64,000 bases of DNA from Bacteroidia bacterium (GTDB taxonomy: Bacteria > Bacteroidota > Bacteroidia > Cytophagales > Cyclobacteriaceae). Positions 19,064 through 38,333 of this stretch are shown here, in pieces (positions within the stretch are counted from its first letter, which is position 1; each line of letters starts with the position of its first letter). Below the pieces are notes generated by a model that was given only the letters and a program-made list of their open reading frames with translations, ran no database searches and had not been told where the DNA came from. The stretch spans positions 1 through 64,000 of the forward strand of contig JAUILA010000021.1 of NCBI GenBank assembly GCA_030432655.1, given 5' to 3'. The position numbers were made by a program, and so were the translations under genes.

Positions 19064-19341
19064 GAGAAGTTGGTTGGTAAAACTCGGTGAATATATAAAT
19101 AATTACTCGCATTTGAAGAAGGGGCTTTATGAACGGTGTCTTATTTGTGCGAACCACCCCGGGGTCAGACGGGTGAGGTGGCGGCCTGATGAGCATCCGG
19201 CAAAATATTGGCAGTCAAAGACTATTCAATAACTATCTGATTATCAATTATGTAGAATGTAAATTTTTGATTGGCACGATTTTGTATTAGGTAGGGGTGC
19301 AGCGCTGCGAAAGTTTAATCATACTATAAACACTGAGCAAT

Positions 19342-20019
19342 ATGAAAAAGAGAATATGGATTGCTTTCGCTTTACTACTTACAGGAATTTCCTGGGCGGA
19401 AGCACAGGTCAAACCTGAATTTGGGATACGTGCAGGGGCGAATTTCGCCAACTGGCGCGGAGAATTATATGACGGGTTCAGTACCCTGCTTGAGGGGACG
19501 AACGCGGTGGAAGCAGAAGGACGTACCGGATTTCACGCCGGGTTTTATATGGTGCAGCCGCTCTCGGAGCGGTGGTCGGTCGAACCGGGTATTTACTATT
19601 CCACGAAAGGAGTGCGGGTATCACAGCGCCTGCTGGATGATACCATGGTGGGCAGCCTGCTGAATGTGAAAGCATCGGTAGCGAATGTGTCCCATTACCT
19701 GGATATGCCGGTGTATTTCCGGTATAATATAACGGATGGATTTCATATTTACGGAGGGCCCCAGGTTTCTTACCTGATGGAGAATAAAGTACGGGCAGAG
19801 GCCGGGTTACTGGGGTTCTCGATCGGTCAGACAGTACCGGTTGATCCGGGATTGAGAAAATGGGATTTCGGACTTTCCGGTGGATTAGGATATGAATTTA
19901 CCAATGGGCTGAATGTACGCGCAGGATATGATCACGGTCTGACAACCCTGGACGAAGGCAGAGGTGATTTTGAGGCTTACAATAAGGCGGTTAAAGTTTC
20001 TGTTGGCTTTACTTTTTAG
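19342..20019 (+). CDS. outer-membrane beta-barrel protein (porin-like, OMP_b-brl_2)
   Basis: Signal peptide MKKRIWIAFALLLTGISWAEAQ, alternating hydrophobic beta-strands, C-terminal F. Confidence 0.6.
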   Translation: MKKRIWIAFALLLTGISWAEAQVKPEFGIRAGANFANWRGELYDGFSTLLEGTNAVEAEGRTGFHAGFYMVQPLSERWSVEPGIYYSTKGVRVSQRLLDDTMVGSLLNVKASVANVSHYLDMPVYFRYNITDGFHIYGGPQVSYLMENKVRAEAGLLGFSIGQTVPVDPGLRKWDFGLSGGLGYEFTNGLNVRAGYDHGLTTLDEGRGDFEAYNKAVKVSVGFTF

Positions 20020-20032
20020 CAGGAGGGGATGT

Positions 20033-20156
20033 ATGTACAGTTGGAGAATTGAGCATACAGCGTGCGTGGGTCAAAAAGTCTGTCATCCCCGTCTATGTAC
20101 AGTGGGAGAATTGAGCATACAGTGTGCGTGGGTCAAAAAGTCTGTCACCCCCGTCC
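20033..20156 (+). repeat. 62-bp tandem repeat, 2 copies (same family as 30367..30800)
   Basis: Unit atgtacagttggagaattgagcatacagtgtgcgtgggtcaaaaagtctgtcacccccgtct repeated at 20033 and 20095. Confidence 0.9.
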
Positions 20157-20354
20157 GGTAACCTGAACGAGTGATTGTCCCTCCAGACGGGGGTCTGGGA
20201 TCGGAGATCCCCGGTAAGCTGGAAGAGTACGATAGGAGGGGCGTAGCGTGGACGCTACGACCATCATTGGATTAAAGAGTAAGTCTCCGTAGCTGCTGGA
20301 TCTCGGGTTACACGACCTTCGGCCGTGTCCCCGAGATGACAGCGCATGAGTCCA
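20143..20354 (+). repeat. ~210-nt structured repeat element, copy A (putative structured RNA / MITE-like)
   Basis: About 93-95% identical to copies at 30786..30998 and 30999..31208. Contains nested perfect stems (cccccgtc...gacggggg, cgtagcg-tgga-cgctacg, ctcggg...cccgag). Confidence 0.7.
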
Positions 20355-20416
20355 TGTCCCCACGCCCTGTTTTTGTTCCCTGTCACCCCACGCCCTGTTC
20401 TTCTTCCCTGTCACCC
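20352..20416 (+). repeat. 27-bp tandem repeat x2 containing the ctgtcaccc core
   Basis: cacgccctgtttttgttccctgtcaccc followed by cacgccctgttcttcttccctgtcaccc. Confidence 0.7.
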
Positions 20417-20422
20417 GGATAT

Positions 20423-21211
20423 TTACTCCTTCTCCCCCTTCCGATCCATGGTTTTCATCAATAAGTCAAGTTTTTCTTCCAGGGCAATAATGCGTTCCTC
20501 GGTCCGTGATGGTGCCTTCATGTGTTCGCTGTAATAGGCCCGGACTTTCCAGATTTCCAGCAGGGCATTCCTGGAGTAATGCAGGATGTCAAAAGCCGGG
20601 TCGTCCGTTTTGAAGGTCAGGTTTTTGTTAATATCGCTCAACCGGCGTACGCGGATTGCATCATCTGTAATCAGCACATACAAGGTTCCCACTTCGAGCA
20701 TATCTTCCTTTCTAACCCGGTCACATAAAAGAATATCCTGATGGTGAATCCCGCAGTTTTCATATTCCATCTCCTTCCCGTCTACCTGGAAGGCCCGTGT
20801 TTTTTCAAACTGTGTGAATGGAAACTGGAAGGAAGGGAGGGAGTTGATAAAGTCTTTGTTCTTATGGCTTACAATATATTCGGTCATCTTATCGATCAGG
20901 ACCAGCGGGGTTTGTTCTTTGAGAAGATCCTTGTCAAGGATGACTTCACTTTCCGTCTTCGCCTTTCCACCTGCAGAGAATAGGTCAAACTTATATAATT
21001 CATTGATTGTGAGTTCTTTGGTGAGAAGGGCGTCAGTACTGATTTTAAAATGCTTCGCTATTTCTATGAGCGTATCTATTTTTGGTTCGGACCGGCCTTC
21101 TTCATAGGCTCCCACACTTGGTCGGGCTAAATTGAACAGCTGAGCAAAATCTGCCTGACTCATTTTCTTCACTGAACGTATTTTTTTGATGTTTTTCCCA
21201 ATTTTTGACAT
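20423..21211 (-). CDS. XRE-family HTH transcriptional regulator with LexA/cI-like S24 domain carrying substituted catalytic residues (Ser to Glu, Lys to Arg)
   Basis: N-terminal HTH_XRE (KKMSQADFAQLFNLARPSVGAYEEG). C-terminal region aligns to LexA VSGMSM...VKRL as VDGKEM...VRRL. Confidence 0.7.
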   Translation of the reverse strand: MSKIGKNIKKIRSVKKMSQADFAQLFNLARPSVGAYEEGRSEPKIDTLIEIAKHFKISTDALLTKELTINELYKFDLFSAGGKAKTESEVILDKDLLKEQTPLVLIDKMTEYIVSHKNKDFINSLPSFQFPFTQFEKTRAFQVDGKEMEYENCGIHHQDILLCDRVRKEDMLEVGTLYVLITDDAIRVRRLSDINKNLTFKTDDPAFDILHYSRNALLEIWKVRAYYSEHMKAPSRTEERIIALEEKLDLLMKTMDRKGEKE

Positions 21212-21450
21212 GTGAATATTTTTTTTCTTTTGTGTAACCTCTTAAGAACTAGTACGTAAATATAAGTAATTAGTTGCTCAAAAAAATAGCAATGACAAAA
21301 AAAGTAGCATTATTTAATTTTATTTATTACTTTTAGAATTAGATGCGAGGCTACATTCAGTATTAGTATACTTTTTATGATTTCCCTCGGGAGTCAAAAA
21401 TATAATTAATACTTTCAATCGATTTATTCACCTCTAACTCAAATCAACCT

Positions 21451-21852
21451 ATGAACGAATACTTCAAAAAAGTACGGGATTACCTGCTGGACCTAAACTA
21501 CAACATCAGCTATGAAGCTGAAACAGACGGTGTCATCGTCGTGGATGAACAAAGTGCAGGAGTGCAAAATCTGGTACTTGGGGTAGCAGACCCGATCCTG
21601 ATCATCGAACAGTTCATTCTGGAGATCAATGGCAACAGTGCAGAAATCTATCGCAGCCTTCTTCAGAAAAACCGCGACATCATCCATGGAGCCTTCGTGC
21701 TTGATGAAAGCGGCACCAAAGTGATTTTCCGGAATACCCTGGAACTTGAAAATCTTGACCTGAACGAACTGGAGGCGTCCTTTAATTCGCTCAGTCTGCT
21801 CCTAAGTGAGTACTCAAACGAACTAATCCAATTTTCTAAGAAAAAACAATAA
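21451..21852 (+). CDS. YbjN/YjfI-like small cytoplasmic protein (putative sensory-transduction regulator fold)
   Basis: 133 aa, acidic. Pattern resembles YbjN-like domain proteins. First gene of the pspA operon, 11 bp upstream of pspA. Confidence 0.4.
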   Translation: MNEYFKKVRDYLLDLNYNISYEAETDGVIVVDEQSAGVQNLVLGVADPILIIEQFILEINGNSAEIYRSLLQKNRDIIHGAFVLDESGTKVIFRNTLELENLDLNELEASFNSLSLLLSEYSNELIQFSKKKQ

Positions 21853-21862
21853 ACATACGATC

Positions 21863-22591
21863 ATGAAAATCTTTAAACGACTATTCAAAATCGGCCAGTC
21901 CGAGGCCCATGCAGCTATAAACAATCTTGAAGATCCCATTAAGCTGACCGAACAGGGTATCCGCGATATGAAGGAAGACCTTGATAAGGCGCTTAATTCA
22001 CTGGCCCAGGTGAAAGCCATGGCCATCCGTGCCCGAAAGGATGCGACCACCTACTCGGAAAAAGCGGAAGAGTATGAGGGAAAAGCGGTGACTTTGTTAA
22101 AGCGTGCTCAAAGTGGTGACATTGATTCATCCGAGGCAGACAGGCTGGCCACCGAAGCCCTTGCACAGAAAGATAATAATCTTCAGCACGCTTCCCGCGC
22201 ATTGGGAGAGCAGACGAAATACGAAGAATCAGTTGAAAAGCTTGAAAGCAATGTCAACCGGCTCAAGTCAACCATTAATCAGTGGGAGAATGAGTTGAAA
22301 ACACTCAAGGCACGCGTCAAAGTGAGTAACGCAACCAAGAATATCAACAAGCAAATGGCGCAGATCGATTCCACGGATACGATCTCCATGCTGGAACGAA
22401 TGAAGGATAAAGTTGCTCAGGAAGAAGCACTGGCCGAATCCTACGAAGAGATGGCCAACGAATCCAGAAGTATCGATGAGGAAATCGATCGTACCCTGGA
22501 GGAGTCCGGTAAATCCGACAAAGCCCGTGAACTGGAAGCTTTGAAGGAGAAACTTGGAATAAAAAAAGAGGACAGTTCTGACAAAGAATAA
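21863..22591 (+). CDS. pspA: PspA/IM30 (ESCRT-III-like) family protein
   Basis: 242 aa all-helical. Alignable with E. coli PspA over the full length (N-terminal amphipathic helix, coiled-coil hairpin). Confidence 0.85.
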   Translation: MKIFKRLFKIGQSEAHAAINNLEDPIKLTEQGIRDMKEDLDKALNSLAQVKAMAIRARKDATTYSEKAEEYEGKAVTLLKRAQSGDIDSSEADRLATEALAQKDNNLQHASRALGEQTKYEESVEKLESNVNRLKSTINQWENELKTLKARVKVSNATKNINKQMAQIDSTDTISMLERMKDKVAQEEALAESYEEMANESRSIDEEIDRTLEESGKSDKARELEALKEKLGIKKEDSSDKE

Positions 22592-22597
22592 TTAATC

Positions 22598-23221
22598 ATG
22601 GGCGAATTACTTGAGGCGGCACTTTCACCAGCAAACCTGGTGATTACAATCCTGGCGGTTTTTGTAGTGATCTACTGGATCACCGTGATCATCGGCCTGG
22701 TGGATGTCGACCTGTTTGATCTCGACTTAGATCTTGACATGGACGTCGATGCCGACGGAATTTCGGTCGGCTGGCTCAACTCGGCCCTTGCCTTTTTCAA
22801 CCTGGCACAGGTGCCCATCATGATCTTCCTGAGTTTCCTTATCATTCCGGCCTGGGGCCTGATACTAATCGTTAACAATGCATTAGGGATTGAATCCTTC
22901 CTGCCCGGATTGCTGGTACTTATTCCTGTATTCATCATCAGTTTGTTCATTGCCAAATTCATGACAATTCCCTTTGTGAAAATTTTTGGGAAAATGTCAG
23001 AGGAGAAGGAGAATGAAGTGGTCATTGGCAAAGTCTGCGAAGTTATTGTTCCCACGAGGGGCAGTAAAGTCGGACAGGCGCTTGTAACAACAAACGGGGC
23101 ACCCCTGCGACTGAATGTCTTTACAACAAAAGGCATCGAGTTGATCAAAGGGGATAAAGGCCTGGTCATTGAATACCAGAAAGAACGAAATATTTATTTA
23201 ATCGAACCTTATAACAATTAG
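22598..23221 (+). CDS. YqiJ/NfeD-like inner-membrane protein (TM N-terminus, acidic DLDLD stretch, C-terminal OB-fold)
   Basis: Multi-TM N-terminal half. C-terminal VIGKVCEVIVP...GQALVTTNGAPLRLNVFT...GDKGLVIEY resembles the NfeD OB-fold. Sits immediately upstream of a flotillin gene as in yqiJK. Confidence 0.6.
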   Translation: MGELLEAALSPANLVITILAVFVVIYWITVIIGLVDVDLFDLDLDLDMDVDADGISVGWLNSALAFFNLAQVPIMIFLSFLIIPAWGLILIVNNALGIESFLPGLLVLIPVFIISLFIAKFMTIPFVKIFGKMSEEKENEVVIGKVCEVIVPTRGSKVGQALVTTNGAPLRLNVFTTKGIELIKGDKGLVIEYQKERNIYLIEPYNN

Positions 23222-23223
23222 AA

Positions 23224-25395
23224 ATGGCAACAAATGTAACGATCGTTTTAATTCTGGTCGGCGTTATCCTCGTAATCGGGATATTGTCGCTCTTTATTAA
23301 AATGTATAGAAAAGCTGTCCAGGGCGAAGCACTCATCAGGACTGGTGTTGGCGATGCAAAAGTTTCATTCTCCGGAATATTTGTCATCCCGGTAATGCAC
23401 AAACTGGAGGTTATGGACATCACCCTCAAAACGGTCAATATATCGAGAATGGGGAAAGATGGTCTCATATGTAAAGACAATATGCGAGCCGATATCAAGG
23501 TGAGTTTCTTTATCCGTGTAAACAAAACCACGGAAGATGTAATTCATGTAGCACAGTCAATCGGATGTCAGCGCGCTTCGGATATTCAGCAACTTGAAAT
23601 GCTGTTTGACGCAAAATTCTCCGAGGCCTTAAAAACCGTAGGTAAGCACTTTGACTTTGTGGAACTCTATAATTCACGAAGCAAATTCAAGGAAAAGATC
23701 CTGGAAGAGATCGGTACGGACCTCAATGGCTATGTGCTGGATGATTGCGCCATAGATTATGTGGAGCAGACATCGATCCTTGATCTTAATGAACAAAATA
23801 TCCTTGACGCACAGGGTATCAAGAAGATCATTGACCTGACGGCCGCAGAAAAGGTGAAGTCCAACCTGATCGAGCGGGAAAAGGAAAAGACCATTAAGAA
23901 GCAGGACGTGGAGGCGCGCGAAACCATTCTCCAGCTGGAAAGGCAGCTTGCGGAGAAGGAAGAGCAGCAGAAACGTGAAATTGATAACATCAAGGCCCGT
24001 GAAGAAGCGGCGATTGCCAAGGTGCGTGAGGAGGAACGTCTCAAGTCCGAAAAAGCACGAATTACCACCGAGGAAGAACTTGGGGTAGCCGAGGAGAACA
24101 AACTCCGTCAGATCGTAGTGGCGCAGAAGAGTAAGGACAAAACGGAAGCGGTTGAAATGGAGCGTGTGGAACTTGCCCGTGCCCTGGAGGCAACCGAACG
24201 CGAGCGGGTGGTTGAGCTGGCGCAGATTGATAAGGAGAAGTCCCTCGAAGTGGAGCGCAGAAATATCCAGGAGGTTATCCGTGAGCGCGTGACCGTGGAG
24301 AAGGCAACAGTGGAAGAAGAGGAAAAGATCAAGGATACACGCGCGAAGGCTGAGGCTGATCGTAATAAGATGGTGGCGATTACGCTGGCCGAACAGAATG
24401 CCCAGGAGGCGCTTGTTAAAGAGATCAAATCGGCCGAAGCTGCCAAACAGTCGGCAGAACATCTTGCTGAAAAAGCGCTGGTGGATGCACAAGCGGAGAA
24501 ATCAGCGGCCGAACACCGCGCAGAAGCCATGAAGACCATGGCCGAAGCAGAAGCCGCTCAGAAAGCAGCTTTAGGTATGTCCGAGGCACAAGTCATGAAA
24601 GCCAAGGCAGAAGCACTCGAAGAGCAGGGTGAGTCGGAAGCCTCCGTGATCGAAATGAAAGCAGAAGCCGAAGCCAAAGGAATCCGGGCCAAGTCCAACG
24701 CGCAGGCGGAAGCCGAAGAGCGCCTCGGATTTACCGCAGCCAAGGTAAACCGGGAGAAAGGGCTTGCCAATGCCGAGGTGACGGAAGTTCAGGCAGCTGC
24801 CGACGAGAAGAAAGGCCTTGCCGACGCCAGGATCATGAAGGAGAAGTTCGCCGCGGATGCAGAAGGCATAAAAGCCAAAGCGGAAGCTATGAAACTCTTC
24901 GACGACCAGGGTATCCTTCACGAAGAGTTTAAGTTACAGCTTGAAAAAGACAGGACGATCGAACTTGCTCATTTCGACATTCAGAAGTATGTGGCAGAAG
25001 CACAGGCGAAAGTACTGGGAGAAGCATTCAAGGAAGCCAACATCGATATCATTGGTGGGGAGTCCATGTTCTTCAACCAGATCGCGGGCGCCATTGCCAA
25101 TGGTAAGTCGATCGACGGACTCGTCAATAACAGCAAAGTGCTGAGCGATATCCGCCATACCTTTTTAGGAAGTGAAGGCGGATCTGACTTCAAGCACAAG
25201 ATCGGTGAATTGCTTAAAAGCTTTAATGTGACCAGTGATGATGTGAAGAATCTCACCATTTCTGCGATCCTCTTTAAGCTCATGGGCAAAGCCGATAATG
25301 CCGACCTGAAGTCAAACCTTCAGCAAATGATGAGCATAGCCAAGTCTGCGGGACTCGATAAGGAGACCCCGAGATCATTGGGACTGGCCGTTTAA
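23224..25395 (+). CDS. flotillin-like SPFH/band-7 protein (YqiK/FloT-type) with long Ala/Glu/Lys-rich coiled coil
   Basis: N-terminal TM anchor, SPFH domain, about 350 aa of EA-rich heptads. Start is 3 nt after the upstream stop. Confidence 0.8.
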   Translation: MATNVTIVLILVGVILVIGILSLFIKMYRKAVQGEALIRTGVGDAKVSFSGIFVIPVMHKLEVMDITLKTVNISRMGKDGLICKDNMRADIKVSFFIRVNKTTEDVIHVAQSIGCQRASDIQQLEMLFDAKFSEALKTVGKHFDFVELYNSRSKFKEKILEEIGTDLNGYVLDDCAIDYVEQTSILDLNEQNILDAQGIKKIIDLTAAEKVKSNLIEREKEKTIKKQDVEARETILQLERQLAEKEEQQKREIDNIKAREEAAIAKVREEERLKSEKARITTEEELGVAEENKLRQIVVAQKSKDKTEAVEMERVELARALEATERERVVELAQIDKEKSLEVERRNIQEVIRERVTVEKATVEEEEKIKDTRAKAEADRNKMVAITLAEQNAQEALVKEIKSAEAAKQSAEHLAEKALVDAQAEKSAAEHRAEAMKTMAEAEAAQKAALGMSEAQVMKAKAEALEEQGESEASVIEMKAEAEAKGIRAKSNAQAEAEERLGFTAAKVNREKGLANAEVTEVQAAADEKKGLADARIMKEKFAADAEGIKAKAEAMKLFDDQGILHEEFKLQLEKDRTIELAHFDIQKYVAEAQAKVLGEAFKEANIDIIGGESMFFNQIAGAIANGKSIDGLVNNSKVLSDIRHTFLGSEGGSDFKHKIGELLKSFNVTSDDVKNLTISAILFKLMGKADNADLKSNLQQMMSIAKSAGLDKETPRSLGLAV

Positions 25396-25465
25396 CGGGC
25401 CAGCTGTATTAATCAAAACGCCCGGGAAGTTGGTCCCGGGCACTTAAACCCTACACCAGTAAAAT

Positions 25466-28400
25466 ATGAGCGATAAGGAAACTTTGTCGACGGGTGGAAA
25501 CTACGAGGTTCTGAAGTCACGCCTGAATGCAGCAGTTGAAGATTTGAAGTCTTCCCTCGCCGGCCTGAATGAGGCTAGGAAAGATACATTCGGCAATATA
25601 GAACAGAAGCTGGTTGCTACCGAACGGATCAGTACGCAGAATAATTGTGTTCCGAGGGATATGATAGCACTGGGCGATAAGCTCCTGTTTGGCTTTAATG
25701 TGCACATCGGGCTAAAAGCCCAGGTCAGTGTGTCCGATGTATTCTCCATCCACAAATATGAAGATCATGCTTTTCATGAACTGGATAATGCGCTTATCAG
25801 CGACGATCAGTTTGAAGATGATTTTCATAAGCTATATAAATACTACAAGGAAACCACCTTCGTGAAATTCGCGGTCCGCGGTCCTTACCTGTATATGATA
25901 TTCCGTATCGGCAAGGACGAAGAGGATATTAAGGCGTTCAAATGGCAGATCAATGCGGAAGGACTCACCTATATCGATAATCGCAGCGAGTACGAATTTT
26001 CCTATCCCGATCAGCATGAATTCTCCTGGAAAAAGACCACGCGTGACAATCAGCGTCAGGGTAAATTTCCCCATGTTTCCATTGAGGATAAGTTGTTCGT
26101 GGAAACAATAGGAGGTGACCTGACCATAAAGATAGAGGACAATACCGATAACGGTCATGGCATTTACAAGGAGGAAGTGGAGGATGCCGACCAGACCCTG
26201 GATGACAGTGAGATCTATTATGCAATTTACGGCAGCCTGATCCTGTTGAAAATCCGCCCCTACCGCGAAGAGGCATACCGTTACCTCGTGTATAACAGTA
26301 AGCTTCAGCAGGTGCGAAATATACCGTCAATCCGGGAAGCATGTATCTTTCTTCCGGACGACCAGGGTATTCTGTTCACAAATGGATATTACCTGCAATC
26401 CGGTGACTTCAAGGCGTTTGAACGCGACGAAGCCAATCTTAAGTACGAACTGACTATTGCCTCTCCCAATGGGGAGGATTATATGTATGTTTTCTACCAG
26501 CCCGGAATCGGTAATTACCTGTTGCTTCCATATAATATAATTCTCCGTCAGATCGGCACCCCGATATGGTGCCATGGATACGCGCTGTACCAGAACGGCG
26601 AATTGGCTTATTTCACGGCAGATGAGCAGCCAAAGAAGCATCATGTAGTGCGGATCTGGCAAACTTCATATACCGCTCCTGATTTTGAACTGACCCACAC
26701 CAACAATTCTTACCTGTCAAAAGTCGGTAACAAAGATATCGTACGAGCGATGGCGGAATGTCAGGAGATCATTACACTTACGGAGAAAGGAGAGGATTAT
26801 GATGGTTTGTATATTGATCTGTCAAGACAGGCGACAGATGTTATCGACTCCTATTACTGGCTGGATCATGACGAGGCGTTTAATGTAAAAAGTCCGCTGG
26901 AAAATATCCGGCAGTCAGCGAATGCCGCCATTGATGAATTTGACAAAGTAGTCAGGATCCGGAAGGAAACCGGCCAGCGTACGAAAGCTGTTTTTGACGA
27001 GGGGTCCTCACATATTAAGAAAACATCCCGCGAAAGCGGACAATCCCTTGATACGTATGTGGCTCACCTGACTACGTTCAGAAAACTGATGGGGGAAACG
27101 GAAGGCTTGCGTCAGTTGCGGTTTGCAGATGAGGAAGCGGTGGATAAACAGCTTGCGGAATTGAAACAGGCCAGTGAGAGTTACGCGGCATCCTGCGTAC
27201 GGTATCTTCTTCGCCCTGAATCGCTCGAGCCTTACGAAAAACGTATTGACGAATTAGCGGCTCGGATTGATGAGGTGAAAAAGGTGACCGAGGCCAAGGA
27301 ATTGCAGGAGAATATTAATCAGACAGGTAAGGATCTGGAGATGCTGATCGACGTGGTGAGTAATCTTAAAATTGAAGATGCCACACAAACGACAGAGATC
27401 ATTGAAAATATTTCAGCACTTTTCGCGAGGGTTAACCAGCAAAGGGCCCGGCTGAAAAAGCACAGGCAGAATCTGTCGCGGGAGGAATCCAAGGCAGAGT
27501 TTGTGGTCCAGATGAAACTGGTTGATCAAAGCCTCACCAATTACCTGGATCTGTGCGATACACCGGCCCGTTGCGAGGAATACCTTTCAAAGCTGTTAAT
27601 CCAGATTGAGGAGATGGAGAGCCGTTTCGGAGATTTTGAGGACTTCTTTTCTGATATTGCCGATAAACGGGAGATGGTGGTCGATGCCTTTGAATCCCGC
27701 AAGAATGTGATTAATGAAGAGCTCGGTAGAAAGCGTCAGAGCCTTTTTCAGTCCGGTAAGCGAATACTTCAAAGTATAGAAAACCGCGTCTTGAAAATGA
27801 ATGACGCCGCCGAAATTCAGGCCTATTTCACTGCGGATTTAATGATTGAGAAAGTTCGGTCCACCATTGAAAAATTGCGTGAAATTGATGATCCGGTTAA
27901 AGCGGATGATCTGGCTGGACAGCTTAAATCATTACGGGAAGACGCTTACAGGCAATTGTCGGACAGGCAGGATCTGTATGCCGGAGATGATGATATAATT
28001 AAATTCGGCAATTTCCAGTTTTCCATTAATTCGCAGCAACTTGAATTGTCCATTATTCCACGGAATGAATCACTCTATTTCTACCTGGGCGGCACAAATT
28101 TTTACGAAAAAGTCAATGACGAATTTCTGGAGAATAACAAGGAAATATGGGACCAGGTCTATCAGTCCGAATCGCCGGATGTATACCGGGCGGAGTTTCT
28201 TGCCTATTCACTTTTCCAGCAATGGCGGATCCAGGGCAATGAAGTATTAAGTGACATTGAAGCGATGGAGGATCAGGATCTGCTGGAACGGATCCGGAAG
28301 GAAATGTCCACCCGGTTCAACGAAGGATACGCGAAAGGCATTCATGATGAAGATACCCTGAAGATCCTGAAGGCAATTTTCTCATTTTACTCAGCAGGGG

Positions 28401-30310
28401 GGACGCTGATCTACCCGGCGGATATCCGTGCGGAAGCAATGAAATTCTGGTTTTTCACCCTCGATGAGGGTTCCAGGAAAAAATGGAACGACAGGATCAA
28501 GGGTCTTGGATTAATTTATTCCGTTTTTAATAATCCTGCGATTTATGCGGAAACCTGCGCGCTCCTTTTACCACTGATTACAGAATCGTCGCGTGATTCC
28601 TTAACCCGCAGTCAGTATGAAGAGGTGACCCGTTACCTTGTGGAAGAAATGGCGGTGGAAACCACCTTCATCTTGTCTGCAGAAGCAGCGGCAACCGGCG
28701 TTAATTTCAAGGCAGCCCTGAAGAAAAGAAAGGCAGTAAAGACCTTTGAAGAATCGCTCAGGAAAGCGGGTGAAACACCTGCAGAACAATTTGCCATGGT
28801 GTGCGAATGGTTAAGGGTTTTTAGTAATCCGGAAGAACGTGAGTTTATGCAGGAAGCCGCTTTGTACATATTAATGGAAGATGTTTTCAGGGTGTCTGAT
28901 ACCGTTATGAAACACCAGATTGGCGGAATGAAGGGAACACATCCGAAGATCAGTGACCAGAATGAATTGGCGTTGAACTTTAATAATTATTTCAAGCGCC
29001 TTTTAGACTATACAACAGGTACTTTACCGGCGTTCCGTGAATTTCAGCACCGGAAGCAGGAAAAGGTAAAAACGTTTTCCGACGAACTTCGGCTGGATTC
29101 CTTTAAGCCAAAAGTCATGAGCAGTTTTGTGCGAAACAAACTGATTAATGATGTCTATCTTCCCCTCATAGGTGCCAACCTGGCCAAGCAAATTGGGGAG
29201 GCCGGAGCCAATCAGCGAACAGATCTGATGGGACTATTGCTGTTGATCTCTCCGCCCGGCTATGGCAAGACTACGCTTATGGAATATATTGCCAACCGCC
29301 TGGGGCTTATATTTATGAAAATTAACGGTCCGGCCATTGGTCACGATGTTACTTCCGTTGATCCGGGAGAAGCGTCAAGTGCCACTGCCCGCCAGGAGCT
29401 GGAAAAGCTGAACCTGGCTTTTGAAATGGGCGATAATATTATGATATACCTGGATGACATCCAGCACGTGAGCCCCGAATTTTTGCAGAAGTTCATTTCG
29501 CTTTGTGATGCCCAGCGGAAAATTGAAGGTGTTTATAAAGGTAAAACCCGCACCTATGATTTTCGCGGTAAGAAGGTTTGTGTGGTAATGGCAGGCAACC
29601 CCTACACCGAGAGCGGTGAGAAGTTTGCTATACCTGATATGCTGGCTAACCGGGCCGACATCTATAATCTTGGCGACATCATTGGTGATTCCTCCCATGC
29701 TTTCAAATTGAGTTACATCGAGAACTGTATCACGAGTAACCAGACCCTTAATAGCCTGGCCGGTAAAAGCCGCGAGGATATCTATGCACTGATCAAGTCT
29801 GCAGAAGACGGAACGGCAGCCGACACCCTCACCGGCAACTATTCTCCAGATGAAATTTCAGATTACCTCAAAGTATTTAAAATGCTTCTGAAGGTCCGGG
29901 ATGTCATCATGACCGTCAATAACGAATACGTTCGCTCAGCAGCACAAGCAGATGAATTCCGGACTGAACCTCCGTTTAAACTGCAAGGTTCTTATCGCGA
30001 CATGAATAAGATCGCGGAAAAAGTATTTCCGGTCATGAATGAAGACGAGTTGAATATTATCCTGTCGGATCATTATGAGAATGAAGCGCAGTCACTCACC
30101 CGCGGGGCTGAATTTAACCTGCTTAAATACAACCAGCTGACTGATCAGCTGACCGACGAAAACCGGAAACGATGGGATTATATAACCAGTGTCTTTATGA
30201 AACAGCAAAAGCAGAAAGGATACGGGGATAATTCAACGGCGATGCTCGTGGAGAATATGGAAGAAATCAGTGACGGGATTCGTGAGATTGGAAAGGCATT
30301 GAAGAAATGA
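25466..30310 (+). CDS. giant (1614 aa) protein with C-terminal MoxR-like AAA+ ATPase module; N-terminal ~1200 aa of unknown function (beta-rich region + long coiled coil)
   Basis: Walker A LISPPGYGKTT (about 29245), Walker B IMIYLDDIQH, sensor block VVMAGNPYTESGEKFAIPDMLANRAD (compare MoxR ATQNP...LDRF). No recognisable N-terminal domain. Confidence 0.75.
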   Translation: MSDKETLSTGGNYEVLKSRLNAAVEDLKSSLAGLNEARKDTFGNIEQKLVATERISTQNNCVPRDMIALGDKLLFGFNVHIGLKAQVSVSDVFSIHKYEDHAFHELDNALISDDQFEDDFHKLYKYYKETTFVKFAVRGPYLYMIFRIGKDEEDIKAFKWQINAEGLTYIDNRSEYEFSYPDQHEFSWKKTTRDNQRQGKFPHVSIEDKLFVETIGGDLTIKIEDNTDNGHGIYKEEVEDADQTLDDSEIYYAIYGSLILLKIRPYREEAYRYLVYNSKLQQVRNIPSIREACIFLPDDQGILFTNGYYLQSGDFKAFERDEANLKYELTIASPNGEDYMYVFYQPGIGNYLLLPYNIILRQIGTPIWCHGYALYQNGELAYFTADEQPKKHHVVRIWQTSYTAPDFELTHTNNSYLSKVGNKDIVRAMAECQEIITLTEKGEDYDGLYIDLSRQATDVIDSYYWLDHDEAFNVKSPLENIRQSANAAIDEFDKVVRIRKETGQRTKAVFDEGSSHIKKTSRESGQSLDTYVAHLTTFRKLMGETEGLRQLRFADEEAVDKQLAELKQASESYAASCVRYLLRPESLEPYEKRIDELAARIDEVKKVTEAKELQENINQTGKDLEMLIDVVSNLKIEDATQTTEIIENISALFARVNQQRARLKKHRQNLSREESKAEFVVQMKLVDQSLTNYLDLCDTPARCEEYLSKLLIQIEEMESRFGDFEDFFSDIADKREMVVDAFESRKNVINEELGRKRQSLFQSGKRILQSIENRVLKMNDAAEIQAYFTADLMIEKVRSTIEKLREIDDPVKADDLAGQLKSLREDAYRQLSDRQDLYAGDDDIIKFGNFQFSINSQQLELSIIPRNESLYFYLGGTNFYEKVNDEFLENNKEIWDQVYQSESPDVYRAEFLAYSLFQQWRIQGNEVLSDIEAMEDQDLLERIRKEMSTRFNEGYAKGIHDEDTLKILKAIFSFYSAGGTLIYPADIRAEAMKFWFFTLDEGSRKKWNDRIKGLGLIYSVFNNPAIYAETCALLLPLITESSRDSLTRSQYEEVTRYLVEEMAVETTFILSAEAAATGVNFKAALKKRKAVKTFEESLRKAGETPAEQFAMVCEWLRVFSNPEEREFMQEAALYILMEDVFRVSDTVMKHQIGGMKGTHPKISDQNELALNFNNYFKRLLDYTTGTLPAFREFQHRKQEKVKTFSDELRLDSFKPKVMSSFVRNKLINDVYLPLIGANLAKQIGEAGANQRTDLMGLLLLISPPGYGKTTLMEYIANRLGLIFMKINGPAIGHDVTSVDPGEASSATARQELEKLNLAFEMGDNIMIYLDDIQHVSPEFLQKFISLCDAQRKIEGVYKGKTRTYDFRGKKVCVVMAGNPYTESGEKFAIPDMLANRADIYNLGDIIGDSSHAFKLSYIENCITSNQTLNSLAGKSREDIYALIKSAEDGTAADTLTGNYSPDEISDYLKVFKMLLKVRDVIMTVNNEYVRSAAQADEFRTEPPFKLQGSYRDMNKIAEKVFPVMNEDELNIILSDHYENEAQSLTRGAEFNLLKYNQLTDQLTDENRKRWDYITSVFMKQQKQKGYGDNSTAMLVENMEEISDGIREIGKALKK

Positions 30311-30323
30311 CAGCATGGCGGAT

Positions 30324-30347
30324 GGTCGGAGCGTCCACGCTCCGACC
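30324..30347 (+). terminator. perfect 10-bp stem-loop immediately after the giant gene stop (no U-tract)
   Basis: ggtcggagcg-tcca-cgctccgacc, 14 nt downstream of the TGA. Confidence 0.4.
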
Positions 30348-30366
30348 AACAGTCCCTGTCACCCCT

Positions 30367-30800
30367 ATGTACAGTTGGAGAATTGAGCATACAGTGGGCG
30401 TGAGTAAAAAAGTCTGTCACCCCCGTCTATGGACAGTTGGAGAATTGAGCATACAGTGTGCGTGGGTTAAAAAGTCTGTCACCCCCGCCTATGGACAGTT
30501 GGAGAATTGAGCATACAGTGCGTGTGAGTAAAAAAGTCTGTCACCCCCGTCTATGTACAGTTGGAGAATTGAGCATACAGTGTGCGTGGGTTAAAAAGTC
30601 TGTCACCCCCGTCTATGTACAGTTGGAGAATTGAGCAAACAGTGGGCGTGAGTAAAAAAGTCTGTCACCCCCGTCTATGTACAGTTGGAGAATTGAGCAT
30701 ACAGTGTGCGTGAGTAAAAAAGTCTGTCACCCCCGTCTATGTACAGTTTGAGAATTGAGCATACTGTGTGCGTGGGTCAAAAAGTCTGTCACCCCCGTCC
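30367..30800 (+). repeat. 62-bp tandem repeat array, 7 copies, two alternating unit variants
   Basis: Copies start at 30367, 30429, 30491, 30553, 30615, 30677 and 30739. Variants differ at gtgggcgtgagtaaaaaa versus gtgtgcgtgggttaaaaa. No unique spacers. Confidence 0.9.
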
Positions 30801-30998
30801 GGTAACCTGAACGAGTGATTGTCCCTCCAGACGGGGGTCTGGGATCGGCAGATCGCCGGTAAGCTGGAAGAGTACGATAGGAGGGGCGTAGCGTGGACGC
30901 TACCACCATCATTGGATTAAAGAATACGTCTCCGTAGCTGCTGGATCTCGGGTTACACGACCTTCGGTCGCATCCCCGAGATGACAGCACGTGAGTAC
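30786..30998 (+). repeat. ~210-nt structured repeat element, copy B
   Basis: See copy A. Has a register-shifted hairpin, cggc-agatc-gccg, where the other copies have gggatc...gatccc. Confidence 0.7.
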
Positions 30999-31208
30999 CT
31001 GTCACCCCCGTCCGAAAATCTGAGCGAGTGCTTGTCTCTCCAGACGGGGGTCTGGGATCGGTAGATCCCCGGTAAGCTGGAAGAGTACGATAGGAGGGGC
31101 GTAGCGTGGACGCTACGACCATCATTGGATTAAAGAATACGTCTCCGTAGCTGCTGGATCGCGGGTTACTCGACCTTCGGTCGCATCCCCGAGATGGCAG
31201 AGAATGAG
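30999..31208 (+). repeat. ~210-nt structured repeat element, copy C (overlaps the annotated ltaE ATG)
   Basis: Tandem to copy B. The element's terminal ccccgagatgRcag supplies the ATG at 31194. Confidence 0.7.
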
Positions 31209-31238
31209 AAATACCGTGATTTTTCCTATTTTTCACCT

Positions 31239-32261
31239 ATGATCATCGATTTGCGCAGTGATACTGTAACCAAACCCACTCCGGGAATGCTGGATGCCAT
31301 GATGTCGGCTGAGGTTGGCGACGATGTATTCGGCGAAGACCCCACCGTCAATGCCCTGGAAGAAAAATGCGCTTCGCTTTTTGGCAAGGAGGCCGCCCTG
31401 TTTTGTCCGTCCGGTACCATGACCAACCAGATCGGGATCAATATCCTGACCAGTCCTTACGAGGAAGTCATCTGTTACAGGAACAGTCACATTTACCTTT
31501 ATGAAGGTGGCGGAATTGCCGGCAACAGTGGATTATCATTCCGTTTACTGGATGCCGATAACGGCCGGCTCACCCGTGACCAGGTGGAAGCGGCCATAAA
31601 TCCGGATGACGTTCACTTTCCCCGCACTTCAGTGGTTTCACTGGAGAATACGGTTAATAAAGGCGGAGGCTCGTGTTACGACCTCAATGAAATCCGCAAG
31701 ATCAGCCGTCTTTGTCGTGACAGAGGCCTGGGACTGCACCTGGATGGCGCCCGCTTGTTTAACGCACTGGTGGCCAGGCATGAATCGCCCAGTGATTACG
31801 GCCGGCTCTTTAATACGATCTCTCTCTGCCTGTCGAAAGGACTGGGCGCCCCGGTCGGATCGGTTCTGATTGCCGACAAATCCCTGATCGCCAAGGCGCG
31901 CAGAATGCGAAAAGTATTCGGCGGAGGAATGCGCCAGGCAGGATTCCTGGCGGCCGCAGGGATCTATGCACTGGATAATCACGTTAACCGGCTTGAGGAT
32001 GATCACCGGAGGGCGACCACCCTGGCGGCGGTGCTTTCCGCCTGTTCCTGGGTAACCGAAGTGTTCCCGGTGGAGACAAATATCGTCATTGTGAAGTTGA
32101 AAGAAGGCCTGACCAATGAACAGGTTTTAGGAGAATTCAGCGAAAAAAATGTACTGGCAACGGGCTTTGGACCTGGGTTGATCCGCTTCACAACCCACCT
32201 GGATTTTACTGATTCACATCTTGAGGAGGCCGTTAAAAAGCTTCGCCCGATATCCTTTTAA
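31239..32261 (+). CDS. ltaE: low-specificity L-threonine aldolase
   Basis: [14 protein letters not shown] start is typical of LtaE. Class-I/II PLP aldolase sequence. The longer ORF from 31194 starts inside the repeat element. Confidence 0.8.
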
Positions 32262-32268
32262 GAGGGAG

Positions 32269-32445
32269 TTAGTAGGTTCGGTCCCGCACATGTACAAGGT
32301 AATAAACAATGGCCGCCGCGAAGATAAGGGCGAAAATTGTCCATAAGATCTTATTGGTTTCGCTAAGCCGGGTATTCTTATTCCATACATCGTAAATAAC
32401 CCAGACAGCGCAGGCAATTCCCAGTAACCAGATTAATTTAGACAT
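32269..32445 (-). CDS. PLDc_N-like small membrane protein (58 aa)
   Basis: Not in the supplied track. MSKLIWLLGIACAVWVIYDVWNKNTRLSETNKILWTIFALIFAAAIVYYLVHVRDRTY matches the PLD N-terminal small-protein pattern (xIxDV...K.LW......P..G.I.Y). Its ATG overlaps the stop of the upstream EamA gene (ATGTCTAA). Confidence 0.5.
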   Translation of the reverse strand: MSKLIWLLGIACAVWVIYDVWNKNTRLSETNKILWTIFALIFAAAIVYYLVHVRDRTY

Positions 32446-33320
32446 TCTTATTTCGTTTGCTCACTAAATAAACACCTGCCATGATAATCAGCGCATAAAT
32501 CACAGTCAGCAAATCAAGCTGATCTTCACCGGCAGCAAGGGCAACAATGGTTGCGAATACAGGCTGAAGATAAATAAAAATGCCGACAACCGAAGAATCA
32601 ACATAGTTGAGTGCCCAGGCATTAAGCAGGTAGACGACAAACGTAGCGGCAAGTACCACATATCCCAGGCTCCACCAGGTAAGATCCGGAAATGATGACC
32701 AGTCCGCTGAGAACACCTGCTGCAACCCAACCGGAACCATCATAAGCGCCCCATAAAGAAATACCCACTTCAGCACGGTGGCATGATGATAAGTCCGCAT
32801 AAGTGGTTTTACCAGTACCAGGTAGGTGGCATAAGTGATGCCGTTAAGCAGAATGAATAAGTCTCCTGTAAACGTACCATTCTCCAGCGAAACACCCCCT
32901 TTGGTAAGCAGCAGAAGCACACCGGCCAACCCGACAAGCACACCTGTGATCTTCATCATCGTCAGTCGTTCATGCCTGAGAAAAGCCGCCACCATCAACA
33001 CCGCAATCGGGGTGGTGGTCATGATCAGGGATGCGTGGATGGGCGTGGTGAGGCTAAGCCCTTTGAAATAGAAGAACTGGTTGATCGCCGTGCCGAAAAA
33101 GGCGCAGCGAATAAGCAACCAGTGATCACGACGCCTGACTTTCTCAGTGGGAAAAGTCCGCGCAACCATCCAGAACAACAAGGTGGAAACCGAAACGCGC
33201 ATTACCACGAACGCCAGCGGCAGGAGATACTCCGGCACCACATATTTCGCAATAGTATAATTCGCCCCGTAAATAAGCGTGACTAGCAAAAGGGCAAGGT
33301 AAACCAGGGCGGTACGCGGC
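32438..33320 (-). CDS. EamA/DMT family transporter
   Basis: 10-TM protein with two EamA-type repeats. Likely start is MPRTALVYLALLL at 33320, since the long ORF N-terminus is not protein-like. Confidence 0.7.
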
Positions 33321-33379
33321 ATAGGTAAAACTATAGATTGCACATGGAAAATCTTACCTTTACAGGGTAAATTACAACT

Positions 33380-37283: not shown

Positions 37284-38333
37284 GTGGCCATCATGTATAT
37301 TTACTGCATGTGGTTGGTTGTTCTGGCGTTCAATTCATTCTCCGTCGTAAAGCTTGGAATTTGTTTCCTGGCTGGCCTGGCTGTCGGTTGGTATTATTTC
37401 AGGAGACCGGGACCCTGGAGTAATATTACTGCTTTATTTCATGGATTGTTCTACGCCGGTATTGTGACATTCATCATGGGGATTATGTTATTTCCGGTGC
37501 TTGGCAGGGTCTGGTACGAATTGTCTAAACCTCCCCTGATGTTCAAAAGTAATGATGACTTGAAGCAATTTACTATCCGGGAGTTTGCAGACCCGCCTGT
37601 GAAAGGTTACCTGGAACATCTGCCTCCCGGATATGAGGAGAATGAGGATGATACCTATCCGATGATCGTGTTTCTGCATGGTCTGGCGGAATATGGAAAC
37701 GGGAAGGATAAAATTTACAGAGCGGCTGAGCTTGGGGTACCACGTGAAGTGGAAAAACTTGGTAATTTGTGTGTCACTAAATCGGACGGAGAAGAAGAAT
37801 GTTTTATCGTCATTGTACCTCAGAAAGACGACAAAGGAGAATGGACGGTGGATATTCAAAGGAATTTCTGGAATTATATACTACACGGGCCTCATAATTA
37901 TCGGTATGATCCGGACCGCATATTCCTGACCGGTTTGTCACTTGGCGCACACGGAGTCTGGGCCTGGGCTCATTCCAAAGAGCCCGATGCCGCTTTGCTG
38001 GCCGGAGCTATACCAGTCAGTGGCCGTGGTAAAAATGCCACCTATGCCTGTCACCTGGAAGAAAATGGTATTAACCTGTGGGCTTTTCACGGCGCTGAAG
38101 ACCCGATCCTTCCTCCGCCAATCGCTATGCAGGAATTTAATGCACTGGAGCGATGTCCTGAGGTGACGGGGGCCGAACATACCTGGACCAACGTTCCGGA
38201 CGTTGGTCACTGGATGTATGAACCAATTTATATCAATGACCACCACATGTTCAATCCGAATATATATGAATGGATGGCAGAGACCCCGAAAAAACATCCT
38301 CCGGCGAAACCTTTACCTGTCCATAGCGAATAA
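37284..38333 (+). CDS. esterase (alpha/beta-hydrolase) paralog of the 34882 N-terminal domain, membrane-anchored
   Basis: Shares YLEHLP, ECFIVI.PQ and YDPDRI.LTGLSLG..GVW.W blocks with the upstream gene. N-terminal 2-TM region carries a GPWS motif. Confidence 0.6.
   Translation: MAIMYIYCMWLVVLAFNSFSVVKLGICFLAGLAVGWYYFRRPGPWSNITALFHGLFYAGIVTFIMGIMLFPVLGRVWYELSKPPLMFKSNDDLKQFTIREFADPPVKGYLEHLPPGYEENEDDTYPMIVFLHGLAEYGNGKDKIYRAAELGVPREVEKLGNLCVTKSDGEEECFIVIVPQKDDKGEWTVDIQRNFWNYILHGPHNYRYDPDRIFLTGLSLGAHGVWAWAHSKEPDAALLAGAIPVSGRGKNATYACHLEENGINLWAFHGAEDPILPPPIAMQEFNALERCPEVTGAEHTWTNVPDVGHWMYEPIYINDHHMFNPNIYEWMAETPKKHPPAKPLPVHSE

What the first reader, a model, noticed from the sequence alone, without database searches (positions are those of the whole stretch)
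30367..30800. 62-bp tandem array (7 copies, alternating A/B variants) with a second 2-copy array 10 kb upstream
The period is exactly 62 bp. Two unit variants (…gtgggcgtgagtaaaaaa… and …gtgtgcgtgggttaaaaa…) alternate, implying a 124-bp higher-order unit. The second block at 20033-20156 has the same orientation, so together they bracket the Psp-like island. Each unit carries the core gtctgtcacccc. This core also starts each ~210-nt element and recurs in the 27-bp repeats at 20352-20416. It could be a protein-binding or recombination site. It is not a CRISPR array, because there are no unique spacers.
Basis: seen in the sequence. Interest (0 to 1): 0.6.

Follow-up and report, generated by a model that had tools for sequence, protein, structure and literature searches.

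The report
Orphan modular intergenic repeat flanking island
The 62-bp array is real and is one module of a composite non-coding repeat, found so far only in this uncultured Cytophagales-like bacterium, whose two same-direction copies tightly flank a six-gene PspA/AAA-ATPase module; it looks like an ordinary repeat of the BOX or MIRU kind rather than a new system.

Summary
There is a 62-bp x7 array at 30365-30799 and a 62-bp x2 array at 20032-20155, with no indels and in the same orientation. Both are joined head-to-tail to a 213-nt hairpin-rich element (E1 at 20142, E2 at 30786, E3 at 30999). The left block also carries 28-bp repeats. Every unit type starts with CTGTCACCCC.

Short-read contigs from two independent runs match the window 100% and stop inside the repeats, so the junctions are real. 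Copy number is unverified.

The two blocks abut a conserved six-gene module (HTH-S24 repressor, CesT-like, PspA, two unknowns, DUF3686 AAA ATPase). That module lies inside a 12-kb segment that the nearest relative lacks.

The 62-mer has no coding potential, no fold, no conserved dyad and no Rfam match. No homologue turned up in any collection searched. Related PspA modules elsewhere carry no such repeats.

Best reading (about 0.5): a lineage-restricted composite intergenic repeat, like BOX/BIME/MIRU in architecture. Its 62-bp module grew by slippage or unequal crossing-over between core-bounded units. The paired blocks are traces of, and substrates for, homologous recombination around the module.

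Rivals are a minus-strand sRNA, a site-specific recombination core, a protein-binding array and an assembly artefact. Interest is modest.

The parts
20032..20155 (+). Left 62-bp array, 2.0 units (L1, L2), both B-type. It starts 13 nt after the stop codon of the OMP gene.
   Evidence: TRF; unit table; sequence
20142..20360 (+). E1, a 213-nt-class hairpin-rich element. It begins with the core that ends unit L2.
   Evidence: (95% mean column identity among E1-E3), nhmmer
20345..20417 (+). 28-bp repeats, about 2.6 units, each starting with a core variant (CTGTCACCCCACGCC). They end 6 nt before the HTH-S24 stop codon.
   Evidence: TRF; sequence; identical in Logan contig L083
20423..30310 (.). The bracketed six-gene module (context, not repeat). 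Genes: HTH_3+Peptidase_S24 repressor (20423-21211, -), CesT_Tir_1/YbjN (21451-21852), PspA (21863-22591), unknown 207 aa (22598-23221), unknown 723 aa (23224-25395), DUF3686/DUF7902/AAA ATPase of 1614 aa (25466-30310).
   Evidence: Pfam; the same module in more than 25 metagenome contigs
30318..30348 (+). GC-rich hairpin directly after the ATPase stop codon. Its stem-loop AGCGTCCACGCT is the inverted form of the central hairpin of E (AGCGTGGACGCT).
   Evidence: sequence; nhmmer E=0.033; 4 copies of the motif against 0.3 expected, all in the blocks
30356..30799 (+). Right 62-bp array. A truncated core (CTGTCACCCC, lacking CGTC) is followed by 7 units, R1-R7, that differ from each other by 1-7 nt. 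Variable columns cluster at unit positions 29-41.
   Evidence: TRF; first junction confirmed in L164/L165
30786..30998 (+). E2, a 213-nt element. Its 5' half is identical to E1 and its 3' half resembles E3.
30999..31216 (+). E3, a 213-nt element in tandem with E2. Its 3' end coincides with the right edge of the 12-kb indel and supplies the spurious upstream ATG (31194) of ltaE.
19139..31217 (.). A 12,079-bp segment (OMP gene, left block, module, right block) that is absent between the SSF symporter and ltaE in the closest relative, L003.
   Evidence: pairwise alignment; synteny with SSF 91%, ltaE 81%, EamA 74% aa identity

Best explanation
The 62-bp array is the tandemly amplified module of a lineage-restricted, non-coding, composite intergenic repeat. 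One block has this order, on a single strand: [hairpin]-[62-bp unit]n-[213-nt hairpin-rich element]1-2-[28-bp unit]0-3. Every unit starts at the same 10-14-nt core, CTGTCACCCC(CGTC).

Inferred mechanism:
- Core-bounded units expand and contract by replication slippage or unequal crossing-over between cores and between whole units. This produced 7 versus 2 copies and a partial two-unit pattern.
- The two blocks are paralogous copies that exchange sequence by recombination or gene conversion.
- Because they sit in direct orientation on either side of the six-gene HTH-S24/CesT/PspA/x/x/DUF3686-ATPase module, they are most likely a trace of the homologous (Campbell-type or duplicative) recombination that placed the module there. 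They are also a ready substrate for RecA-dependent loss or amplification of the module.
- The 62-mers themselves probably have no sequence-specific function, like a variable-number tandem repeat. The hairpins of the 213-nt element may incidentally act as terminators between the closely packed genes.

Shown: the anatomy, the junctions, the tight bracketing, the absence from relatives, and the lack of coding, folding or dyad features.

Inferred: the amplification mechanism, the recombination history and the neutrality.
For: Anatomy and significance.

Junctions: confirmed in two independent short-read assemblies whose contigs break inside the repeats, as expected for true multi-copy DNA.

The 62-mer looks featureless:
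- A period of 62 is not a multiple of 3.
- DNA fold z-scores run from -0.3 to +0.9.
- The only palindrome, TGTACA, is broken in R2 and R3.
- Unit differences cluster in a GT-rich patch.

No database relative: no Rfam family at gathering score or at E<=10. The ORF-like minus-strand translation of E is R/S/P-rich junk with no relative among 5.8 billion protein clusters.

Mosaic similarity between blocks: L1-L2 plus E1 positions 1-49 against R6-R7 plus E2 positions 1-49 match at 166 of 173 positions. The E2 3' half equals E3, while the E1 3' half is distinct. This indicates exchange between the blocks.

Context:
- The closest relative has SSF and ltaE adjacent, so the 12 kb is an indel whose right edge is the end of E3.
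- The module is a conserved cassette found in many other contexts. None of 17 relatives with both flanks has flanking direct repeats, and none has this repeat. The repeat therefore belongs to the host lineage, not to the module.
- No recombinase, transposase or partition gene lies beside the blocks.

Precedent: composite boxA-boxBn-boxC repeats with a variable tandem module are documented in PMC3049150.
Against: - Only two loci are visible in a 64-kb window, so I could not show that the family is dispersed in the genome. That is a defining trait of BOX/BIME/MITE-type repeats.
- Three different unit types begin at exactly the same core. This is not explained by random tandem duplication and hints at a core-specific process.
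- The similarity between the 62-mer and the 213-nt element outside the core is only 8 nt (CGTGAGTA) and is not significant (348 of 1000 shuffles). A common origin of the modules is unproven.
- The left edge of the 12-kb indel is not at a repeat block.
- Neutrality of the array is assumed, not tested.
Confidence: 0.5

Rival explanations
1. The 213-nt element is a small-RNA gene on the minus strand. E1 would be made from the 3' UTR of the HTH-S24 repressor mRNA. The core plus A-run is the 3' half of its intrinsic terminator, read as GACGGGGGUGACAGACUUUUU. The 62-mers would be truncated terminator-bearing derivatives.
For: - The minus strand of E2 folds better than shuffles (z=-3.8, 0 of 200 shuffles as good), while the plus strand gives z=-1.6.
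- A terminator-like hairpin plus T-run on the minus strand sits exactly at the core end of E1 and E2.
- Several differences between copies keep pairing on the minus strand through G-U: 5 one-sided changes against 3 on the plus strand.
- E1 lies directly downstream of a minus-strand gene.
Against: - No compensatory pair on either strand, with only 3 copies at 95% identity.
- No Rfam match.
- No Bacteroidota-type TAnnTTTG promoter anywhere near E3 or E2 on the minus strand.
- E3 carries two stem-breaking changes.
- The 62-mer has no fold at all.
- No homologue in relatives that could show conservation.
Confidence: 0.15
2. The core CTGTCACCCC(CGTC) is the crossover or target site of a site-specific recombinase or transposase encoded elsewhere. 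Units of 28, 62 and 213 bp, and the six-gene module itself, would be cassettes inserted head-to-tail at the core.
For: - All three unit types start at the same core and all cores are on one strand.
- The right block and the E2/E3 junction both begin exactly at CTGTCA.
- The 213-nt element is closed by a short terminal inverted repeat, CTGTC...GACAG, and has subterminal hairpins.
- The module is bracketed to within a few nucleotides of its outer stop codons.
Against: - No recombinase or transposase lies in or next to the segment. The only integrase in the window (56747-58078) belongs to a tRNA-Ser island with its own att repeats and no core.
- The core has no dyad symmetry.
- There are no target-site duplications.
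- The left array starts without a core.
- Related modules elsewhere have no flanking repeats.
- No other genome or metagenome shows the element.
Confidence: 0.12
3. The array is a set of reiterated binding sites for a DNA-binding protein. It could be centromere-like as in F sopC, iteron-like, an operator bank for the neighbouring HTH-S24 repressor, or a curved-DNA/nucleoid site upstream of ltaE.
For: - The 62-bp spacing is regular, about 5.9 helical turns, with one A5-6 tract per unit and two TACAGT half-motifs 20 bp apart.
- A CI/LexA-like repressor gene adjoins the left block.
Against: - There is no conserved dyad, and TGTACA and TACAGT are mutated in several units.
- Nothing of 9 nt or more is shared with the repressor's own promoter region.
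- There are no ParA/ParB or Rep genes.
- There is no DnaA-box enrichment.
- Relatives of the module lack any array.
Confidence: 0.1
4. The array, or its copy number, is an assembly artefact from an expanded or collapsed repeat.
For: The copy number could not be checked. Short-read contigs all break inside the repeat.
Against: - Three unique-to-repeat junctions are reproduced at 100% identity in two independent runs.
- The units carry distinct substitutions in a consistent register with no indels, which is unlike polishing or expansion artefacts.
Confidence: 0.04

Closest known systems
Pneumococcal BOX elements (boxA-boxBn-boxC composite repeats; PMC3049150)
   Same: Both are non-coding, intergenic, modular composites on one strand in which one short module (boxB there, the 62-mer here) is present as a tandem array of variable number next to larger hairpin-forming modules. 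Both often lie just downstream of genes. In BOX elements length varies by gain and loss of the tandem module.
   Different: There is no sequence similarity. The host is Bacteroidota, not Streptococcus. BOX elements occur at more than 100 dispersed loci with terminal inverted repeats and target-site duplications; here only two loci are visible, the inverted repeats are 5-10 nt and no target duplication is seen. Here the modules share a common starting core.
Mycobacterial interspersed repetitive units (MIRU-VNTR) and enterobacterial BIMEs (from my own knowledge)
   Same: They have tandem units of 40-100 bp in intergenic regions, oriented with the flanking genes, with copy number changing by slippage (MIRU). 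BIMEs are mosaic combinations of several short motifs.
   Different: There is no homology. REP/BIME units are palindromic and depend on RAYT transposases, whereas the 62-mer is not palindromic and no RAYT is seen. MIRU polymorphism between strains is documented, but here it is untested.
Direct repeats flanking genomic islands (attL/attR of integrative elements)
   Same: Same-orientation repeats lie at both sides of a horizontally distributed gene module that the nearest relative lacks.
   Different: The repeats here are 0.4 and 0.9 kb of composite tandem DNA rather than a 15-60-bp att core. There is no integrase in the segment, and the left block is internal to the indel. The genuine att-type island in this window (tRNA-Ser, 47.6-58.3 kb) looks quite different.
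F-plasmid sopC-type centromeres (12 x 43 bp; from my own knowledge)
   Same: Both are regular tandem arrays of a unit of about 40-60 bp with no spacers.
   Different: Each sopC unit carries a conserved inverted repeat bound by SopB and lies next to sopAB. Here there is no conserved dyad and no partition genes.
CRISPR arrays
   Same: A short conserved sequence recurs at a fixed interval.
   Different: The stretches between cores are near-identical (not unique spacers), the repeat is 10-14 nt, and there are no cas genes in the window. It is not CRISPR.

Membership tests
CRISPR array | Repeats of 23-55 bp separated by unique spacers of similar length | tested here: not met
   Sequences between cores are 89-98% identical to each other. 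The conserved core is only 10-14 nt.
CRISPR array | cas genes or a leader nearby | tested here: not met
   Pfam scans of 40 of the 53 large ORFs across the window show no Cas domains.
Composite interspersed repeat (BOX/BIME type) | Non-coding modules combined in a fixed order, with one module tandemly reiterated | tested here: met
   The order [62]n-[213]1-2-[28]0-3 is seen in both blocks on the same strand.
Composite interspersed repeat (BOX/BIME type) | Many dispersed copies in intergenic regions of the genome | not testable with these tools
   Only 64 kb of the source genome is available. Two loci are seen and there are no further copies in the window.
Composite interspersed repeat (BOX/BIME type) | Sequence homology to boxA/B/C or REP | not tested
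   No direct comparison with boxA/B/C or REP sequences was made. The broader searches of the collections found no relative of any kind: 62-mer against GTDB representatives; E patterns and 62-mer against IMG/VR; E 20-mer against JGI metagenomes; blocks against plasmids, phages and E. coli genomes. The resemblance is in architecture only.
MITE | Terminal inverted repeats | tested here: inconclusive
   E has CTGTCAYCYC at its 5' end and the inverted form 11 nt from its 3' end (9 of 14 matching, my own manual comparison of the termini). The termini pair as CTGTC/GACAG in the consensus fold. The 62-mer has none.
MITE | Target-site duplications and a related autonomous element | tested here: not met
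   No duplicated flanks are seen. There is no transposase in the window.
Integrative island att sites | Integrase gene within the bracketed segment, with short identical att cores at both ends | tested here: not met
   There is no integrase in 19139-31217. The flanking repeats are 0.4-0.9-kb composite blocks.
Partition centromere or iteron array | Adjacent ParA/ParB or Rep gene and a conserved binding motif in each unit | tested here: not met
   No such genes are present. The only palindrome is broken in 2 of 9 units.
Known structured RNA family (Rfam 15) | Covariance-model match at or near the gathering score | tested here: not met
   Only a tRNA is found in the window. At E<=10 in 30250-31300 there is only a 13.8-bit chance hit.
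VNTR / minisatellite | Copy-number polymorphism between strains | not testable with these tools
   Short-read contigs of the two other samples break in the array. Within the genome the two loci have 7 and 2 copies.

The most novel reading that the evidence does not exclude
The 10-14-nt core could be the recognition and crossover site of an as yet unidentified recombination system, acting in trans. Such a system would string non-coding units of different length (28, 62, 213 bp) and a whole six-gene PspA/AAA-ATPase module head-to-tail at one chromosomal site. That would be an integron-like cassette platform in Bacteroidota with no integrase in cis.
Probability: 0.08. Interest if true: 0.65.

Novelty: new member of a known kind. 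Interest (0 to 1): 0.3.

Why it matters
If the reading is right, this is one more lineage-specific intergenic repeat family.

Practical consequences:
- It breaks short-read assemblies of this organism. All five Logan contigs fetched from this region have an end inside it.
- It supplies a false upstream start codon for ltaE.
- It provides 0.4-0.9 kb of direct homology that could delete or amplify a conserved but uncharacterised PspA/AAA-ATPase module.
- It could serve as a strain-typing marker.

It would matter more only if the shared core proved to be a site-specific recombination target or if the 213-nt element proved to be a functional RNA.

Tried and rejected
**Homologues of the repeats (none found)**
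- The 62-mer 24-nt pattern gave 0 hits in GTDB species representatives and in IMG/VR.
- The E 20-mer gave 0 hits in JGI metagenomes and IMG/VR. The pattern of core plus left hairpin gave 0 in IMG/VR.
- Blastn of both blocks against E. coli genomes (near mode) and against plasmids and phages (distant mode) found nothing.
- nhmmer profiles of both unit types against 2 Mb of fetched Bacteroidota loci hit only the same organism's Logan contigs.

**Spurious-ORF trick.** The minus-strand ORF across E was searched against 5.8 billion protein clusters with no hit.

**Coding.** Rejected. A period of 62 is not a multiple of 3. The open frame on the E minus strand (213 = 3x71) translates to low-complexity R/S/P sequence.

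**Known RNA.** Rejected by Rfam. Covariation is uninformative with 3 copies.

**Is the 62-mer an internally deleted E?** Only the core and CGTGAGTA are shared, which is not significant.

**Operator bank for the HTH-S24 repressor.** No motif is shared with its promoter region.

**Replication origin.** The cumulative GC skew has a minimum near 15 kb, but DnaA boxes are not enriched.

**Are repeats a general feature of the module?** No. None of 17 related modules has comparable flanking direct repeats, and the 234-bp tandem in L084 is unrelated.

**Defence system.** PADLOC gives only generic HTH hits.

**Literature.** Searching for the repeat sequences found nothing.

Full report

Yes. Tandem Repeats Finder finds a 62-bp unit repeated 7.0 times at 30365-30799 (93% matches, no indels, score 758). 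The same unit is repeated 2.0 times at 20032-20155.

Immediately 3' of each array lies a 213-nt element. E1 is at 20142-20360, and E2 and E3 sit in tandem at 30786-30998 and 30999-31216. Mean column identity among the three is 95%. E1 is followed by 2.1-2.6 copies of a 28-bp unit.

The decamer CTGTCACCCC (up to 1 mismatch) occurs 14 times against 2.7 expected. Thirteen of these are on the + strand inside the two blocks.

- The short repeat has a period of 28, not 27.
- The left array starts at 20032.
- The A/B alternation is imperfect. The unit tails read A B A B A A B, and both left units are B-type. Lag-124 identity is 94.5% against 93.3% at lag 62. A 124-bp higher-order repeat is therefore only weakly indicated.

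**2. Is it an artefact?**

Exact-protein look-ups recovered Logan short-read contigs from two runs, SRR24442557 and ERR3420974. These contigs are 100% identical to the window and stop inside the repeats:
- The ATPase contig runs through the hairpin and truncated core into the first 62-mer.
- The HTH-S24 contig runs through the 28-bp repeats into E1.
- The ltaE contig starts inside E3.

Three junctions between unique and repeated DNA are thus independently confirmed. The copy number is not.

**3. Organism and context**

The best relatives of ltaE are Cytophagales. An uncultured Roseivirgaceae MAG reaches 81% aa identity, and Fulvivirga and Cyclobacteriaceae reach about 60-66%. The source is therefore a Bacteroidota lineage with no close species representative.

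Genes around the blocks:

| Coordinates | Strand | Product |
|---|---|---|
| 17255-19063 | - | SSF symporter |
| 19342-20019 | + | OMP beta-barrel |
| 20032-20417 | + | LEFT BLOCK |
| 20423-21211 | - | HTH_3+Peptidase_S24 repressor |
| 21451-21852 | + | CesT_Tir_1/YbjN |
| 21863-22591 | + | PspA |
| 22598-23221 | + | unknown, 207 aa |
| 23224-25395 | + | unknown, 723 aa |
| 25466-30310 | + | DUF3686/DUF7902/AAA ATPase, 1614 aa |
| 30318-31216 | + | RIGHT BLOCK |
| 31239 onward | + | ltaE (conserved start; runs to 32261) |
| 32438-33664 | - | EamA |

The left block fills the whole 403-bp gap between two convergent stop codons. The right block starts 8 nt after the ATPase stop codon and ends 22 nt before the conserved ltaE start.

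In the closest relative (L003) the symporter and ltaE are adjacent, with SSF at 91%, ltaE at 81% and EamA at 74% aa identity. DNA homology stops at window 19138 and resumes at 31218. So 12,079 bp are an indel comprising the OMP gene, the left block, the module and the right block. Its right edge is the end of E3.

The six-gene module recurs with the same order in more than 25 marine metagenome contigs, in other contexts, at up to 66% PspA identity. None of those loci contains the repeat. None of the 17 with both flanks available has comparable flanking direct repeats. The repeat therefore belongs to this host lineage and is not part of the module.

**4. What the units look like**

*62-mer.* The nine units differ by 1-7 nt, and variable columns cluster in a GT-rich patch at positions 29-41. 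The unit cannot be coding, because 62 is not a multiple of 3. As single strands, units and dimers fold no better than shuffles, with z from -0.3 to +0.9. The only palindrome, TGTACA, is broken in R2 and R3. No motif of 9 nt or more is shared with the module's divergent promoter region.

*E (213 nt).* It is rich in hairpins and is closed by a short terminal pairing, CTGTC...GACAG.
- Its minus strand folds better than shuffles (z=-3.8; the plus strand gives -1.6).
- On the minus strand the core end forms a terminator-like stem followed by a T-run.
- With three 95%-identical copies there is no compensatory change on either strand.
- The minus-strand open frame, kept open because 213 = 3x71, translates to low-complexity sequence with no relative in the protein database.
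- Rfam finds nothing.

*Shared features.* The ATPase-proximal hairpin at 30318-30348 carries AGCGTCCACGCT, the inverted form of E's central hairpin. The motif has four copies against 0.3 expected, all within the blocks.

Outside the core, the 62-mer and E share only CGTGAGTA near their 3' ends, which is not significant.

All three unit types, the start of the right block and the E2/E3 junction begin exactly at CTGTCA. The left array begins without a core.

*Relation between the two blocks.* L1-L2 plus E1 positions 1-49 against R6-R7 plus E2 positions 1-49 match at 166 of 173 positions. The 5' half of E2 equals E1 and its 3' half equals E3, while the 3' half of E1 is distinct. This mosaic pattern indicates recombination or gene conversion between the blocks.

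**5. Distribution**

No homologue of either unit was found in:
- GTDB representatives, 62-mer only
- IMG/VR
- JGI metagenomes, E 20-mer
- E. coli genomes, plasmids and phages
- 2 Mb of fetched Bacteroidota loci
- the literature

Whether more copies exist elsewhere in the source genome cannot be tested with the 64-kb window.

**6. Most likely explanation (confidence about 0.5)**

This is a lineage-restricted composite intergenic repeat. Its architecture resembles pneumococcal BOX elements, which have boxA and boxC flanking a variable tandem array of boxB and vary in length by gain and loss of boxB (PMC3049150). It also resembles MIRU-type VNTRs.

Inferred steps:
- The 62-bp module expanded by slippage or unequal crossing-over between core-bounded units.
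- The two blocks are paralogous and exchange sequence.
- Their direct orientation around the module is a by-product of the homologous recombination that installed the module.
- It also makes the module prone to RecA-mediated deletion or amplification.

The hairpins of E may incidentally act as terminators in these tightly packed intergenic gaps.

**7. Rivals**

- *Minus-strand sRNA, or 3'-UTR-derived RNA for E1 (0.15).* For: fold asymmetry and the terminator-like end. Against: no promoter motif and no conservation evidence.
- *Core as a site-specific recombination or transposition target (0.12).* For: the shared unit start and the tight bracketing. Against: no recombinase nearby, no dyad in the core, no target duplication and no other instance. 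The window's only integrase belongs to a separate tRNA-Ser island with its own att repeats.
- *Protein-binding array (0.10).* For: regular phasing. Against: no conserved dyad and no partner gene.
- *Assembly artefact (0.04).* The confirmed junctions speak against it.

**8. Novelty and score**

This is a new family of a known kind of element: a composite, tandemly amplified intergenic repeat. It has no known relatives, and no feature so far demands a new mechanism.

Interest is modest at 0.3. The shared core and the exact bracketing of a conserved, uncharacterised PspA/AAA-ATPase module are the only aspects that could hide something more unusual. I put the probability of an integron-like, core-specific cassette mechanism at about 0.08.

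Noticed in passing
window 47611-58330: A mobilisable island of about 10.6 kb is integrated at tRNA-Ser(TGA) (47611-47696). It carries a BsuBI/PstI-type restriction enzyme with a C5 methylase, a MobA/VirD2 relaxase, a Toprim primase-like protein, a VapE-like protein and a tyrosine integrase (56747-58078, -). GC drops to 0.34-0.38. The tRNA 3' end (47674-47697) is partly duplicated at 58302-58325, which looks like an attR. Short arrays of the 12-mer TTGTGGGGCGA(A/T) lie next to both ends (47750, 58172, 58490-58526) and may be arm-type sites.
   Followed up: partly
window 20423-30310; loci L084-L163: A six-gene module is conserved in order in more than 25 marine metagenome contigs. It consists of a divergent HTH-S24 repressor, a CesT_Tir_1/YbjN-like protein, PspA, unknown proteins of 207 aa and 723 aa with no Pfam, NCBIfam or PADLOC hit, and a 1614-aa DUF3686/DUF7902/AAA ATPase. 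Its function is uncharacterised and it is not a listed defence system.
   Followed up: partly
window 31194-31239: Gene callers start ltaE at the ATG at 31194, inside repeat element E3 (the 355-aa product on record in Logan). Homologues align only from residue 16, and the DNA homology with the relative L003 resumes at 31218. The real start is probably the ATG at 31239, and the 15-aa extension is repeat-derived.
   Followed up: yes
window 35707-36608: Three direct repeats of about 281 nt, spaced 306-315 nt apart at 62-76% identity, lie inside the 771-aa ORF 34882-37197. They encode tandem K319L-like PKD domains, so these are coding domain repeats and not a non-coding array.
   Followed up: partly
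window 35056-35208 and 37656-37823: Two short segments (47 and 34 nt, 76-77% identical) recur 2.6 kb apart in neighbouring ORFs (34882-37197 and 37293-38333). This suggests that the two genes share a paralogous domain.
   Followed up: no
window 1-64000 (minimum near 14-15 kb): Cumulative GC skew falls to a minimum around 15 kb and then rises steadily. DnaA-box-like sites are not enriched (13 against 17 expected), so there is no evidence for an origin. The pattern may simply reflect gene orientation.
   Followed up: partly
L084 2183-2647: The closest related PspA locus (MAAC01018578.1) has an unrelated 234-bp x 2.0 tandem duplication (91% matches) that overlaps the 5' end of the longest ORF of a gene whose product carries a P-loop-like GSRGVGKTT motif (an annotation I read from the sequence).
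   Followed up: partly
L159, 1.5-kb flanks on both sides of the module: A sequence of about 33 bp matches in both orientations on either side of the related module. This looks like a shared palindromic terminator-type hairpin rather than direct repeats.
   Followed up: no
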